Positions 1-7,068 of a DNA stretch of 7,068 nucleotides are shown here, in pieces (the stretch's first letter is position 1; each line of letters begins with the position of its first letter). The position numbers and the translations under genes were made by a program. The DNA lies in the NCBI RefSeq assembly GCF_006345805.1, contig NW_021829009.1, positions 1 to 7,068 on the forward strand, given 5' to 3'. Below the pieces are notes generated by a model that was not told the origin of the DNA, made no database searches, and saw only the letters and a list, made by a program, of their open reading frames with translations. This DNA comes from Octopus sinensis (lineage: Eukaryota).

Positions 1-527
1 AGCAGGGAGGATGCCACATCTTTGACCAGCCAATATGAAGCGGAGAAAAGATTGAGCCAATGAGATGGTGGAGAGGCCATTAGCATTTGCAGACACTGTC
101 ATATTCTCTGATGAGTCCAGATTTGCTGTATTTCCTAACAGTGGTCGAGTGTGGGTCTGGAGACTCTGTGATCAAGAATTAGATGTGAAAAGATTGCAAC
201 CAGCAATTCTGTGATGGTCTGGGGAACAATTTGGAGCAATGGTTGATCAGAGCTGGTGGAGTATGAACGAAAAATAAACACAAATAAATATGTGTCCATG
301 TTGCAAGCCCGTCACCAGATATGAACCCTATAGAACACCTCTGGGGCATAATGGACAGGACATTTCATAAACAGAACAAGAAAGCATCTTCAAAGCCAGA
401 ACTTTTGAGATTATTGCATGAAACTTTGCAAGAAATTCCGCAAGAGAATATTCATCATCTGATCAGGAACATGCCTATAAGAGCCCTTGCATTTTAAAAG
501 GCAAAGAGCATGTCTACTAAATATTAA
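1..527 (+). pseudogene. Decayed Tc1/mariner (Tc1-type DDE) transposase, C-terminal catalytic domain; 5' part lies outside the window
   Basis: Manual translation over three frames. Frame 2 gives TVIFSDESRF..GRVWVWR (FSDES at 104-118, first catalytic D). Frame 1 gives SVMVWGTIW (from 208). Frame 3 gives SPDMNPIEHLWG (from 312, catalytic E) through LIRNMP..KAKSMSTKY* (stop 525-527). In-frame stops and two frameshifts are present, and the block with the second catalytic D (QDNA-type) is missing near 308. Confidence 0.93.
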
Positions 528-585
528 ATACATTATTTACATTATTTACAATTGACGGATATTTGTCCTCATCTAGTTTGTTGTT

Positions 586-631
586 AACACAAAGTTTCGG
601 CTGATAGACCCTCCAGCCTTCATCAGGTGTC
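586..631 (-). ncRNA. Minimal type I hammerhead ribozyme motif (possibly inactive copy)
   Basis: Minus-strand RNA reads GACAC-CUGAUGA-A-GGCUG-gagggucuau-CAGCC-GAAAC-UUU-GUGUU. Stem I is GACAC/GUGUU, stem II is GGCUG/CAGCC, and both core boxes are intact. There is an extra A after A9, and stem III is nearly absent (AACUUU, one change from the palindrome AACGUU). Confidence 0.65.
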
Positions 632-678
632 TTGGGAAAATTTCGAACCTAGGTTCTCATTCCTAAGGTATTTTTCGA

Positions 679-695
679 TGTTGTTGTTGTTGTTC

Positions 696-730
<35 letters not shown>
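679..730. repeat. (GTT)n-(ATT)n compound microsatellite
   Basis: Read directly from the sequence. Confidence 0.97.
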
Positions 731-753
731 GATCAGGTCAGATATGTAAAAGT

Positions 754-1109: not shown

Positions 1110-1558
1110 CGGATCTTTTCGCTTTAAACGGCAGTTTTTTCTAGCGGTGTCATATAAAATTGTCACCCATAATTATGACCCTAGTATCGATCTATTGCAT
1201 TTCAATCTGTTTTAGGGTTAGGGTTAGTTAGGACTAGTTAGGGTTAGTTAGGGTTAGGGTGGGAGGAAGGGTATCTTTTTTTCTTCACAAATGTAAATAA
1301 ACCCAATCTGTTTCTTAAACGAGGGACATATTCATACGACACAGAATGTATTTTACCTCAATGGACGTCATTGATTGGTTGAAATTGCAGAAATTGAAGA
1401 AAAAACAACAACAAATATCTTAAAAACTATAGAATTTTCTCAATAAAGCCAAGAGAAAAAGATGTTTTACAAACACATTCTACCAGTATACGAAGTTTAA
1501 AATTTTTTAGTTACCTAGAAATTATGTTAAAAACTGCCGGTCAAACCTAAAAGATCCG
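1110..1558. mobile_element. Non-autonomous TIR DNA transposon (MITE), superfamily unassigned
   Basis: Left TIR CGGATCTTTTCGCTTTAAACGGCAGTTTTT (1110-1139) matches the reverse complement of 1529-1558, CGGATCTTTTAGGTTTGACCGGCAGTTTTT, at 26/30. Flanks AAATGA (1104-1109) and AAATTA (1559-1564) suggest a 6-bp TSD with one mismatch. No coding capacity. Confidence 0.88.
1212..1263 (+). repeat. Telomere-like TTAGGG/TTAG array inside the MITE
   Basis: Five exact TTAGGG units (1212, 1218, 1238, 1248, 1254) interspersed with TTAG, TTAGGA and CTAG. Confidence 0.9.
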
Positions 1559-2877: not shown

Positions 2878-3377
2878 CCACCTCCATCCACTACAAACAC
2901 ACAGACTCCACTCATGCCTCAACTTCTCCTCCTCCCACCCTAAACACGCCAAGCTTTCCATCCTCCGTCTACGCAGGCTCTGTAGTGACGACCATGATTT
3001 TGAAACTCAGTTTCAACTCATAGCTCGCCACTTCATCCTACGTGGATATCCCCTCACCACTATCCACACCGCTCTTGCTAGAGTATGTTCCGTGGATCGT
3101 ACATCTGCTCTCTCCCCCCTCACCTGCCCCGCCGTCTCCCGTTTCCCCCTCACCTACCAACCCCACACCACCGCTCCAACGCACAATCCTCCGAGCCTTC
3201 CGGCGACTCCAGTCCGACCCCTCCACTTCGCACATCTTCCCTAACCGACTCCTCCCCTCTTTCAAACGAACTCACAACCTACGAGGCCTCTTGGTCCACA
3301 GCTTCTACCCTAACACAACCTCCTAACCCGGCTCGTTCCCCTGCTCCCACCCACGCTGCCGCACTTGCCCTTTTTTC
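2877..3377 (+). pseudogene. Decayed Penelope-like element ORF fragment (RT thumb/C-terminal region plus Cys-rich linker preceding GIY-YIG), Neptune-type
   Basis: Translation across frameshifts gives TSIHYKHTDS / HSCLNFSSSHPKHAKLSI-LRLRRLCSDDHDF..HFILRGYP..FPLTYQP / LQRTILRAFRRLQSDPSTSHIFPNRLLPSFKRTHNLRGLLVHS..* PGSFPCSHPRCRTCPF. This matches the PLE motifs YxKPTD, SxHP, LRxRRICS, RGYP, LTYHP, R..NLR..LV and Cx4Cx2C. The strand is strongly C-rich, the PYSQF-type segment is missing, and there is a stop at 3324-3326. Confidence 0.9.
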
Positions 3378-3633: not shown

Positions 3634-3842
3634 CCTTTCCACAAGAGGAACAAAGTCTGAACATTTGGGTGAGCGGATACTCGACTACATCGACCCCAGT
3701 GTTCGACTGGTACTTATTTCAACGGTCCTGAAAGGATGAAAGGCAAAGTCAACCTCGGCGGAATTTTAATTCAGCATGTAAAGAGCCTGAGAAATAACGC
3801 TAAGCATTTGTCCGGAGTGCTAGCGATTCTCCAGTTCGCCTT
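3634..3842 (-). mobile_element. tRNA-derived SINE, family A (Meta/MESC-like central domain), near full length
   Basis: Reverse complement reads GGCGAACTGGAGAATCGCTAGC..TATTTCTCAGGCTCTTTACAT..CCGAGGTTGACTTTGCCTTTCATCCTTTC..AAATAAGTACCAGTCGAACACTGG. It aligns by eye with 4713-4860 and 6662-6887. The domain name is from recall. Confidence 0.88.
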
Positions 3843-4712: not shown

Positions 4713-4860
4713 CGGTTAGCTAATATAATCATTTGTAGGCCGGACGAAATGTTTAGCGATATTACGTCCGTCCTTAAACCGAAGTTGACTTTGCTTTCAT
4801 CCTTTCGGAGTTGATAAAATAAGTACCAGTTGAACACTGGTGTCAACATAATTGACTTAA
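4713..4860 (+). mobile_element. SINE family A copy with internal deletion of the B-box region
   Basis: CCGGACGAAATGTTTAGCG..CCGAAGTTGACTTTGCTTTCATCCTTTCGGAGTTGATAAAATAAGTACCAGTTGAACACTGG is homologous to 3634-3842 and 6662-6887. The TTCTGAGTTCAAAT segment is absent near 4775. Confidence 0.87.
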
Positions 4861-5983: not shown

Positions 5984-6120
5984 GCTGGAAACGTTAGAGC
6001 GTCGAATAAATATACCTACGGTATTTTTACTTACGATTCTGTACGTTTTGAATTCAAATCCTGCACAGCATAATTTGGCATTTTCAGGGATCGAAAAAAT
6101 AATGGATCAATTAAGTATTG
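5984..6120 (+). mobile_element. Highly degenerate SINE family A copy
   Basis: GAAACGTTAGAGCGTCGAATAAAT..CGGTATTT..TACGTTTTGAATTCAAATCC..GGGATCGAAAAAATAA is colinear with the other family A copies. Confidence 0.6.
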
Positions 6121-6129
6121 CTATAAACT

Positions 6130-6280
6130 TGGCTGTGTGGTTAAGAAGCTCGCTTTGCAAATCACATGGTTTCGAGTTCAGACCCCGCTGCGCGGTACTT
6201 TTGGGAAAGTATCTTCAGTTATAACCCTTGGTCGCCCAATTTCTCGAGTGAAATTGGTAGACGTAAATTGTGTAAGCCTC

Positions 6281-6661: not shown

Positions 6662-6887
6662 AATATAGAACTGTTAAGTACACAGGATAAAGCGCTGCCT
6701 TCCACTATTTCTTCAGGCTCTTTACATTCTGAGTTCAAATCCCACCGAGGTAATTTTGTTTTTCATCCTTTCGGAGCCGATGAAACAAGTACCAATCAAG
6801 CACAGAGTTCTATATAATCGACTAGCCCCACCTCGCACAAAATTCTAGGCCTTGTGCCTATAATACAAAGAATTGTTATTATTATTT
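6662..6887 (+). mobile_element. SINE family A copy with (ATT)n tail
   Basis: B box GAGTTCAAATCCC (6731-6743), core TTTCATCCTTTCGGAGCCGATGAAACAAGTACCA, then GGCCTTGTGCCTATA and an ATT tail. Confidence 0.87.
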
Positions 6888-6895
6888 CGACAGTA

Positions 6896-7068
6896 GGCGC
6901 AGGAGTGGCTTTGTGGTAAGTAGCTTGCTTACCAACCACATGGTTCCAGGTTCAATCCCACTGCGTGGCATCTTGGGTAAGTGTCTTCTGCTATAGCCTC
7001 GGGCCGACCAATGCCTTGTGAATGGATTTGGTAGACGGAAACTGAAAGAAGCCTGTCGTATATATGTA
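6896..7068 (+). mobile_element. SINE family B copy, 5' portion, runs off the window
   Basis: GGCGCAGGAG start, A box TGGCTTTGTGG (6906-6916), B box GGTTCAATCCC (6949-6959), CTTGGGTAAGTGTCTT, TTGGTAGACGGAAACTG, then the start of the internal microsatellite. Confidence 0.92.

What the first reader, a model, noticed from the sequence alone, without database searches (positions are those of the whole stretch)
529..740. Second, unrelated hammerhead inside a SINE-like element with a Pol III B-box-like motif
Seen: minus-strand CUGAUGA and GAAAC boxes with correctly placed stems I and II, about 10 nt downstream of GGTTCGAAAT, and followed by a short tandem 3' tail. Known: Pol III-type retroposons with HHRs exist (Schistosoma SM-alpha), as do animal non-LTR retrozymes. 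Inference: a SINE-hammerhead hybrid that may be mobilised by PLE machinery and that I do not know to be characterised in this lineage. This copy has UUU where GUU would give a palindromic AACGUU dimer stem, so it may be inactive.
Basis: partly seen in the sequence, partly recalled or inferred. Interest (0 to 1): 0.75.

Follow-up and report, generated by a model that had tools for sequence, protein, structure and literature searches.

The report
Dead SINE copy with Penelope-type hammerhead
Window bases 529-740 hold a truncated, mutated copy of a very abundant short repeat that carries a minimal hammerhead ribozyme motif of the Penelope-retrotransposon type, and the way its relatives sit in the genome suggests the family is likely copied by Penelope-like enzymes rather than by a LINE.

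Summary
On the minus strand at 631-586 lie GACAC-CUGAUGA-A-GGCUG-(10 nt)-CAGCC-GAAAC-UUU-GUGUU. This is a hammerhead core with helix I (5 bp), helix II (5-6 bp) and no helix III. My descriptor found no such motif in 42 Mb of shuffled window.

The stretch is one copy of a family of thousands: 4,903 exact 26-mers and 761 fully intact 46-nt motifs in the genome. Longer copies have a 5' head with Pol III A and B boxes, then an internal (AAT)n(AAC)n microsatellite, the hammerhead body, 9-nt repeats and a 30-35 nt extension.

The motif meets each sequence feature of the "min-HHR" of metazoan Penelope-like elements. Many insertions are head-to-head inverted dimers inside one target-site duplication, with the extension at one end only. 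That is the published Penelope insertion footprint.

Three things did not hold. GGTTCGAAAT is not the B box. There are no tandem arrays. No autonomous element sharing the 3' end was found. Rfam and ARAGORN see neither a hammerhead nor a tRNA.

The window copy lacks the head and has G16.2 changed to U, so it is predicted to be dead. Cleavage and Penelope dependence are inferred, not shown.

The parts
734..740 (-). Remnant (TGACCTG) of the 3' end of the family's Pol III-type head; the rest of the head, with the A and B boxes, is missing (5' truncation)
   Evidence: Compared with full heads ...CCAGGCAGTGACCTG(AAT)n in L005, L017, L029 and others. The segment map finds no head in the window.
679..733 (-). 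Internal microsatellite of the element, (AAT)n(AAC)n on the element's strand
   Evidence: TRF. Same position in all 39 aligned arms.
640..649 (-). GGTTCGAAAT, B-box-like word inside the body; not the family's promoter box
   Evidence: The true A and B boxes lie in the head upstream of the microsatellite.
586..631 (-). Minimal type I hammerhead motif: helix I 631-627/590-586, CUGAUGA 626-620, extra A 619, helix II 618-614/603-599, GAAA 598-595, C15.2 594, U16.2 593 (consensus G), U16.1 592, U17 591. Predicted cut between 591 and 590.
   Evidence: Consensus.
551..585 (-). 3' body downstream of the predicted cut. In copies that keep the extension, AGAUGAGGA here is predicted to pair with UCCUCAUCU of the extension.
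   Evidence: Fold of L012, (9-bp stem in both the MFE and the centroid structure).
529..550 (-). 9-nt terminal repeats (GTAAATAAT x2.4). This is the 3' end of this copy; the 30-35 nt extension seen in other copies is absent.

Best explanation
Window 529-740 (minus strand) is a 5'-truncated, point-mutated copy of a high-copy SINE whose body carries a Penelope-type minimal hammerhead motif, and the family is likely mobilised by the reverse transcriptase/GIY-YIG endonuclease of Penelope-like elements (PLEs).

Shown: the full element reads 5' head with Pol III A and B boxes, (AAT)n(AAC)n, body with GACAC-CUGAUGA-A-GGCUG...CAGCC-GAAAC-GUU|GUGUU, (GUAAAUAAU)2-3, and a 30-35 nt extension. The hammerhead lies on the same strand as the promoter boxes. 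Copies are 5'-truncated to varying degrees. Many are head-to-head inverted pairs enclosed by a single 8-14 bp target-site duplication, with the extension at one outer end only.

Inferred:
1. Pol III transcribes the element from the head.
2. A PLE enzyme nicks the target and primes reverse transcription on the RNA's 3' end. Often both DNA ends prime, which would give two arms that meet head to head.
3. The hammerhead has no helix III, so it could cut only as a dimer through its ACGU palindrome. There are no tandem copies, so that would have to happen between two RNAs. The motif may therefore serve more as a recognition or docking module taken from a PLE end than as an efficient self-cleaver.

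The window copy is predicted to be inert. It has no promoter head, no extension, and U instead of G at 16.2, which breaks the palindrome.
For: Family size: 3,371 first-look candidates, with the 40 scored full-length matches 92-100% identical. There are 4,903 exact copies of the 26-nt CpG-free core plus helix II and 761 exact copies of the whole 46-nt motif; the reversed-pattern controls gave 0.

Consensus motif (39 arms). It meets the features listed for metazoan PLE min-HHRs in PMC4209133 (parts 1-2 read): no helix III, helix I 4-5 bp, an extra nucleotide between A9 and G10.1, a G10.1-C11.1 pair, and palindromic 15.2-16.2. Helices I and II appear in the MFE fold of both the consensus and the window copy.

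Head: the strict pattern TRGCNNAGTGG-N25-45-GTTCGANNCC occurs in 12 of 41 family loci, always just before (AAT)n, and in 0 of 59 control loci (383 kb).

Footprint:
- 18 of 30 mapped places are inverted dimers (19). This sample is biased towards dimers.
- 2 of 12 are dimers in a less biased sample.
- Among the first 100 genomic places, all 8 close pairs are (-,+), that is head to head; none are (+,-) or same-strand.
- The extension sits on exactly one arm in 17 of the 18 dimers, and in L010 and both dimers.
- 8 of 18 dimers have outer direct repeats of >=10 nt, against a control 95th percentile of 9; 12 of 18 have >=8 nt. Solo copy L116 has an 11-nt TSD, seen by eye.

Resident PLEs are abundant (3,534 and 5,029 first-look candidates) and have RVT_1 plus GIY-YIG ORFs. 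Two PLE families carry the same motif layout near their 3' ends (10 instances each).
Against: - No autonomous element shares the SINE's 3' module. blastn against 29 + 30 PLE loci found nothing. Three negative-context pattern searches gave only 17, 17 and 66 heterogeneous hits.
- Rfam reports no hammerhead and no tRNA in the window or in 6 family loci. ARAGORN finds no tRNA in 8 loci.
- 0 of 5 head-bearing solo copies tested showed a TSD of >=8 nt.
- Raw RNA-seq reads cover the family equally in both mate orientations. Depth rises gradually from head to 3' end, as copy number would predict. There is no pile of read starts or ends at the head start or at the predicted cut.
- Arms of a dimer are no more alike (91.5%, n=9) than arms from different loci (92.7%, n=731). 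This does not show that the two arms come from one RNA.
- There are no partial tandems (pLTRs).
- Published min-HHRs cleave poorly in vitro (PMC4209133).
Confidence: 0.68

Rival explanations
1. An ordinary LINE-mobilised SINE. The hammerhead-like motif would be a passenger with no role, and the inverted pairs would arise from a LINE-type process such as twin priming or template switching.
For: 5' truncation and variable TSDs are common to all target-primed retroposons. No PLE partner was found. No cleavage signal appears in RNA reads.
Against: In the dimers both arms begin at the element's 3' end, which twin priming does not produce. The 30-35 nt extension is one-sided in 17 of 18 dimers, a feature PMC8557442 says is not seen with non-LTR elements. 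The motif matches the PLE min-HHR feature list (PMC4209133). The negative-context searches also found no LINE sharing the tail.
Confidence: 0.17
2. A fold-back or MITE-type DNA transposon with long terminal inverted repeats and a microsatellite centre.
For: Many loci look like ~200-bp inverted arms around a microsatellite-rich centre.
Against: TSD length varies from 8 to 14 nt. The arms are unequal and truncated from the inner (head) side. The extension is on one side only. A/B-box heads sit at the centre facing outwards. Solo copies are common: 10 of 12 in the less biased sample.
Confidence: 0.03
3. A non-LTR retrozyme: tandem repeats with type I hammerheads that are cut to unit length and circularised.
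For: Retrozymes are the described non-autonomous hammerhead elements of animals and are thought to depend on PLEs (PMC7229834 passages; preprint 10.64898/2026.07.22.740005, abstract and passages).
Against: No same-strand pairs lie within 1 kb among the first 100 places. Each transcript has one hammerhead. Retrozymes are not described with a Pol III head. No back-joined reads were listed; the joints seen were opposite-strand ones.
Confidence: 0.03
4. A chance resemblance to hammerhead boxes.
For: Rfam gives no hit. The z-score of the 46-nt fold is modest: -12.6 against -9.0 +/- 2.6 kcal/mol with mononucleotide shuffles.
Against: 0 descriptor hits in 42.4 Mb of shuffles. Every core position is canonical in the consensus. 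The same layout occurs in two resident PLE families.
Confidence: 0.01

Closest known systems
Minimal hammerheads (min-HHR) in the terminal repeats of metazoan Penelope-like elements (Cervera and De la Pena 2014, PMC4209133; Lunse, Weinberg and Breaker 2017, which is not held here and is cited from recall and from the reference list of PMC8490949)
   Same: Canonical core. No helix III, with a palindromic ACGU. An extra nucleotide between A9 and G10.1. A G10.1-C11.1 pair. A short helix I (5 bp). Thousands of mostly single copies. Pairs on opposite strands 100-700 bp apart were also reported for Schistosoma mansoni.
   Different: It sits in a short element with a Pol III-type head and no ORF, not in a pLTR. 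Helix II is 5-6 bp, against 7-8 bp in the S. mansoni families. No PLE with a homologous end was found.
Sm-alpha / Sj-alpha SINE-like retroposons of schistosomes (Ferbeyre et al. 1998; Laha et al. 2000; seen here only as cited in PMC8490949, details recalled)
   Same: A short interspersed, SINE-like element that carries a type I hammerhead.
   Different: Sm-alpha has a canonical hammerhead with helix III that cleaves well (recalled). Here the motif is the helix III-less PLE type. The head-to-head, one-sided-tail footprint is, as far as I saw, not described for Sm-alpha. No sequence comparison was possible.
Insertion units of endonuclease-bearing PLEs (Craig et al. 2021, PMC8557442, passages read)
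   Same: 5' truncation, an inverted 5'-truncated copy adjacent at the 5' end, and a 30-40 bp tail at one end only.
   Different: No partial tandems (pLTRs). The element is about 300 nt and non-coding.
Animal non-LTR retrozymes (PMC7229834; preprint 10.64898/2026.07.22.740005)
   Same: A non-autonomous hammerhead element thought to use PLE enzymes.
   Different: No tandem arrays, one hammerhead per unit, a Pol III head, and no sign of circles.

Membership tests
PLE-type min-HHR (PMC4209133) | Conserved core CUGANGA ... GAAA | tested here: met
   Window 626-620 and 598-595. Consensus.
PLE-type min-HHR (PMC4209133) | No helix III; positions 15.2-16.2 palindromic (ACGU), allowing a dimer | tested here: not met
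   The window copy has ACUU (593 = U). The family consensus does meet it: GAAACGUU, 80% of RNA reads, and 11 of 39 arms pass the strict descriptor.
PLE-type min-HHR (PMC4209133) | Extra unpaired nucleotide between A9 and G10.1, and a G10.1-C11.1 pair | tested here: met
   A at 619; G618-C599.
PLE-type min-HHR (PMC4209133) | Short helix I (4-5 bp) flush with the core and the cut site | tested here: met
   GACAC/GUGUU, 5 pairs including one G-U.
PLE-type min-HHR (PMC4209133) | Located in the terminal repeat of a PLE | tested here: not met
   It lies in a SINE body. No PLE shares the sequence.
PLE-type min-HHR (PMC4209133) | Self-cleavage as a dimer | not testable with these tools
   RNA reads show no end pile at 591/590, but such libraries are poor at showing it.
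Rfam hammerhead families (types I, II, III, HH9, HH10) | Match to a covariance model | tested here: not met
   No hit at E<=1 (window), E<=10 (500-760), E<=5 (6 loci) or E<=10 (L017). This is expected for a motif without helix III.
tRNA-derived SINE | Internal Pol III A and B boxes at the 5' end | tested here: met
   12 of 41 family loci match the strict pattern, 0 of 59 control loci. The box consensus is recalled. This window copy lacks the head.
tRNA-derived SINE | Head folds as, or scores as, a tRNA | tested here: not met
   ARAGORN: 0 genes in 8 loci. No Rfam tRNA hit.
tRNA-derived SINE | Dispersed copies with TSDs and 5' truncation | tested here: met
   TSDs were seen mainly around dimers.
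PLE-type insertion unit (PMC8557442) | Inverted 5'-truncated copy adjacent at the 5' end | tested here: met
   18-19 of 30 places (biased sample) and 2 of 12. All 8 close pairs are head to head. The window copy itself is solo.
PLE-type insertion unit (PMC8557442) | 30-40 bp tail at only one end | tested here: met
   17 of 18 dimers, plus L010, L117 and L118. Absent from the window copy.
PLE-type insertion unit (PMC8557442) | Partial tandems forming pLTRs | tested here: not met
   0 same-strand pairs within 1 kb in 100 places.
Non-LTR retrozyme (PMC7229834) | Short tandem repeats, each unit with a type I hammerhead; circular RNA | tested here: not met
   No tandem arrays. Circles could not be tested properly.

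The most novel reading that the evidence does not exclude
The helix III-less hammerhead of this SINE is an RNA-RNA docking site, not a self-cleaver. Its ACGU palindrome, also present in at least one resident Penelope family (GAAACGUA), would let the Pol III transcript form a heterodimeric hammerhead stem with a Penelope RNA and so ride into the Penelope RT/endonuclease particle. That would make this the first SINE class partnered with Penelope-like elements. It would give min-HHRs a non-catalytic job.
Probability: 0.1. Interest if true: 0.8.

Novelty: new variant of a known kind. Interest (0 to 1): 0.5.

Why it matters
SINEs are classed by the LINE that moves them, and I know of no recognised SINE class partnered with Penelope-like elements. 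Four searches of the held library found no paper linking a hammerhead to a cephalopod SINE. Repbase and Dfam could not be consulted.

A short repeat of roughly 6,000-10,000 copies that carries the Penelope ribozyme type and the Penelope insertion scar would be a compact natural reporter for the poorly understood Penelope integration mechanism: double priming, the one-sided tail, and 5' joining. It also bears on the open question of what minimal hammerheads do when only one copy is present per transcript.

The window copy itself is an ordinary dead copy.

Tried and rejected
- Rfam on the window, on 500-760 and on family loci gave only microsatellite-driven miRNA look-alikes.
- ARAGORN on 8 loci found nothing.
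- Partner search:
  - blastn of a full SINE against 29 loci of the window's own PLE family and against 30 GIY-YIG loci found nothing but one 17-nt word.
  - Patterns asking for the body start, the extension or the 9-mer tail in a non-SINE context gave 17, 17 and 66 heterogeneous hits with no recurring alternative context.
- A sequence seen upstream of the SINE body in L010, L021 and L119 looked like a possible partner. It proved to be a separate ~560-nt repeat inserted into the (AAT)n microsatellite.
- RNA:
  - No listed holder was on record as RNA except one raw-read run of a same-species label.
  - Laying that run gave no strand bias and no discrete ends.
  - The contig runs guessed to be RNA (X15, X18, X20) cannot show ends.
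- Arm-to-arm identity in dimers did not differ from the background.
- A protein search with a resident PLE ORF named only bivalve and symbiont-bin records, so it did not fix the host lineage. I take the genome to be an octopus only from recall of its other SINEs and from earlier notes of this scan.
- Papers PMC5785218 and PMC108972 are not held.
No family-A PLE motif is in the window.

Full report
**1. What is in the window**

On the minus strand the stretch reads, 5' to 3':
- a 7-nt remnant TGACCTG (740-734);
- a microsatellite (AAT)n(AAC)n (733-679);
- a unique body (678-551);
- 2.4 copies of a 9-nt repeat (550-529).

Inside the body lies GACAC (631-627), CUGAUGA (626-620), A (619), GGCUG (618-614), a 10-nt loop, CAGCC (603-599), GAAA (598-595), C (594), UUU (593-591) and GUGUU (590-586). 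This is a type I hammerhead core with helices I and II and no helix III.

**2. Is it more than chance**

The loose pattern CTGANGA-N8-38-GAAA has 2 matches in the window against 0.30 expected. The other match, at 6170-6218, lies in a different repeat and has no helices.

I wrote a fuller descriptor: flush helix I of >=4 bp, an optional bulge, helix II of >=4 bp closed by G-C, and GAAA-A-N-N-U-H. It finds only 631-586 in the window and nothing in 3,000 dinucleotide shuffles (42.4 Mb), with or without the 15.2-16.2 pair. The window copy fails only that pair. ViennaRNA puts helices I and II in the minimum-energy fold of both the window copy and the consensus.

Rfam reports no hammerhead anywhere. 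This is expected, since its models need helix III. It means this motif is not a member of the Rfam families as modelled.

**3. The family**

The 172-nt body has 3,371 first-look candidates in the window's own 2.7-Gb genome, and the 40 scored matches are 92-100% identical. Exact counts:
- 4,903 copies of the 26-nt CpG-free core plus helix II;
- 761 copies of the complete 46-nt motif;
- 0 for the reversed-pattern controls in both searches.

In my 39 aligned arms, 20 keep the 26-mer and 5 keep the 46-mer. The genome therefore holds very roughly 6,000-10,000 hammerhead-bearing arms.

The majority line of the alignment reads ...CCCCAAGACAC CTGATGA A GGCTG GAGGGTATAT CAGCC GAAAC GTT GTGTT AACAAC.... 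In raw RNA-seq reads, 1,355 of 1,689 (80%) carry the consensus base at 593. The other frequent variants (594, 598, 599, and 593 A>T) are CpG decay.

Mean pairwise identity of arms is 92.7%.

**4. The full element**

Longer copies begin with about 80 nt: (C)CCACGGGCATATGGCGTAGTGGTTAAGAGCNCGGGCTACTAACCCCAAGATTCCGAGTTCGATTCCAGGCAGTGACCTG. After it come the microsatellite, the body, the 9-mers and, in about half of the ends, a further ACATAATTCCTCATCTCTTAAATATAGAACTG(TAT).

The head contains TGGCGTAGTGG and AGTTCGATTCC, which match the Pol III A-box and B-box consensus as I recall it. The strict two-box pattern occurs in 12 of 41 family loci, always just before (AAT)n, and in 0 of 59 control loci. 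The boxes and the hammerhead are on the same strand.

ARAGORN (0 genes in 8 loci) and Rfam do not score the head as a tRNA. A tRNA origin is therefore unproven. It is not the promoter box.

The window copy keeps only the last 7 nt of the head and has no extension.

**5. How copies sit in the genome**

I mapped head, body and extension on 29 loci plus the window.
- 18 units are inverted, head-to-head dimers and 12 are solos. L017 and L018 are the same sequence.
- L010 later proved to be a 19th dimer, with its head pushed away by another repeat inserted in the microsatellite.
- This sample is biased, because places with two arms collect more query words.

In 12 loci taken in chromosome order for an intact motif, 2 are dimers.

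An orientation test free of that bias uses the first 100 genomic places of the 26-mer. All 8 pairs closer than 1 kb (142-395 nt apart) are (-,+), that is head to head. None is (+,-) or same-strand.

The extension is on exactly one outer end in 17 of 18 dimers (L015 has it on both), and likewise in L010, L117 and L118.

Direct repeats at the outer ends of dimers reach >=10 nt in 8 of 18 and >=8 nt in 12 of 18. For 506 mismatched flank pairs the mean is 5.9 and the 95th percentile is 9. Each such dimer is therefore one insertion event.

Against this, none of the 5 head-bearing solos tested there showed a repeat of >=8 nt. One solo (L116) has an 11-nt duplication, seen by eye.

Inner ends of arms are truncated at varied points in the head, the microsatellite or the body.

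Arms of one dimer are no more alike than unrelated arms: 91.5% (n=9) against 92.7% (n=731). That fits two fresh copies decaying independently, and it excludes a recent fold-back duplication.

**6. Comparison with what is known**

Cervera and De la Pena (PMC4209133, parts 1-2 read) defined min-HHRs of metazoan Penelope-like elements. Their features are no helix III, a 4-5 bp helix I, an unpaired nucleotide between 9 and 10.1, conserved G10.1-C11.1, and palindromic 15.2-16.2. They also report action as dimers, weak cleavage in vitro, thousands of mostly single copies, and some pairs 100-700 bp apart on opposite strands. The family consensus here meets each sequence feature.

Craig et al. (PMC8557442, passages read) describe PLE insertions as 5'-truncated, often with an inverted 5'-truncated copy adjacent at the 5' end and a 30-40 bp tail at only one end. 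They state that these features are not seen with non-LTR elements. The SINE shows this footprint but not the partial tandems (pLTRs).

The genome is rich in PLEs. The window's own ORF remnant (2915-3130 searched) has 3,534 first-look candidates. GIY-YIG has 5,029. Two sampled ORFs carry RVT_1 plus a C-terminal GIY-YIG. Both PLE families have a helix III-less hammerhead-like motif near the 3' end (10 instances each):
- TCTTT-CTGTTGAA-GAGC-GTAG-GCTC-GAAAC-GT-A|AAAGA, with U at core position 6;
- TTGATAA-GGTTC...GAACC-GAAAC-ATGT-A|AAAT, the U3/A8 core variant that PMC4209133 reports.

The layout is shared. The sequences are not.

**7. What was not found**

No autonomous element shares the SINE's body, extension or 9-mer tail. 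There are no tandem arrays, so this is not a retrozyme in the sense of PMC7229834.

Raw RNA-seq reads cover the family at 700-2,000x per orientation against 0-2x in the flanks. But the two orientations are equal, depth follows the expected copy-number gradient from head to tail, and there is no pile of starts or ends at the head start or at the predicted cut. This neither shows nor excludes a Pol III transcript or cleavage.

**8. Mechanism**

The anatomy and footprint above are shown. The following steps are inferred.
1. Pol III starts about 10 nt before the A box.
2. The transcript's 3' part includes a predicted 9-bp stem between AGAUGAGGA of the body and UCCUCAUCU of the extension. By my rough estimate such a match would arise by chance about 0.5% of the time. 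This 3' part is used by a PLE RT/endonuclease for target-primed reverse transcription.
3. Often both nicked DNA ends prime on the 3' end of SINE RNA, and the two cDNAs are joined head to head.
4. One end starts at the true 3' end and carries the extension. The other starts in the 9-mers.

Because each RNA has a single helix III-less hammerhead, cutting would need pairing of two RNAs through ACGU. A cut would also sever the head from the tail, yet retroposed copies contain both. I therefore think the motif more likely acts as a recognition or docking module inherited from a PLE end than as an efficient processor. My odds are about 65-70% for PLE dependence. The role of the motif is open.

**9. 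The window copy**

It has no head and no extension. G16.2 is changed to U, which breaks the palindrome. It has a TTTT run at 639-636 where the consensus has TTT. I saw no target-site duplication. It is predicted to be inert.

**10. Novelty**

Four library searches and passages of a 2026 octopus repeat survey (PMC13282606) gave no description of a hammerhead-bearing cephalopod SINE or of a SINE partnered with PLEs. Repbase and Dfam could not be checked.

Earlier notes of this scan reach the same reading for what appears to be the same family in other windows. They are leads, not independent evidence.

The host lineage is not fixed by my calls. A protein search named only bivalve records, and "octopus" rests on recall and on those notes.

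Noticed in passing
window 2915-3330 (+); loci L032-L060: Remnant of a Penelope-like ORF. Its family has 3,534 first-look candidates; relative L048 has RVT_1 plus a weak GIY-YIG match. The family's 3' region carries a min-HHR-like motif with U instead of the invariant A at core position 6 (10 instances). L032 holds two such motifs 1,924 nt apart on the same strand, which looks like a pLTR.
   Followed up: partly
loci L065-L090 (for example L068:2354): A second PLE family (RVT_1 + GIY-YIG) has a helix III-less hammerhead with the U3/A8 core covariation and an ACAUGU palindrome. The motif lies about 66 nt before a (TA)n end.
   Followed up: partly
L010:1700-2290 (-), L021, L119, L137-L166: A ~560-nt repeat (AATGCCCTGATGCAG...CTCTCTCACTC) with 6,423 first-look candidates and copies 97-98% alike. 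Every copy I looked at is flanked by (AAT)n on both sides. In three loci it is inserted in the SINE's internal microsatellite. It appears to be a young element that targets (AAT)n.
   Followed up: partly
L176/L179 (G000:C4, about 1.148-1.152 Mb): The SINE's 9-nt terminal repeat is expanded to an array of more than 2 kb on the extension-less arm of a dimer.
   Followed up: no
window 618; L005:1583/1638: RNA-seq reads show a recurrent opposite-strand joint inside the hammerhead region: 197 loose ends with 0.98 agreement at window 618, and 164 reads at L005 1583/1638. This could be an abundant or highly expressed inverted variant of the element.
   Followed up: no
window 624: About 16% of raw RNA reads of run X24 carry G5>A in the hammerhead core, but almost no contigs of the other runs do. 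This may be a subfamily or a species difference.
   Followed up: no
window 1-520 (+): By eye this looks like a Tc1/mariner-type transposase remnant (the CTGATGAGTCC at 108 reads as coding ...FSDES...). The SINE's 3' end abuts it. Not checked with a tool: the one Pfam attempt failed on stop codons.
   Followed up: no
window 6095-6260 and 6890-7068 (+); 3690-3790, 4770-4860, 6740-6830: Other SINE-like repeats, seen by eye, with A/B-box-like heads (GTGGTTAAGA..., GGTTCCAGGTTCAATCCC). One motif family recurs in both orientations.
   Followed up: no
window 1212-1260 (+): A short degenerate run of TTAGGG-like telomere-type repeats, seen by eye.
   Followed up: no
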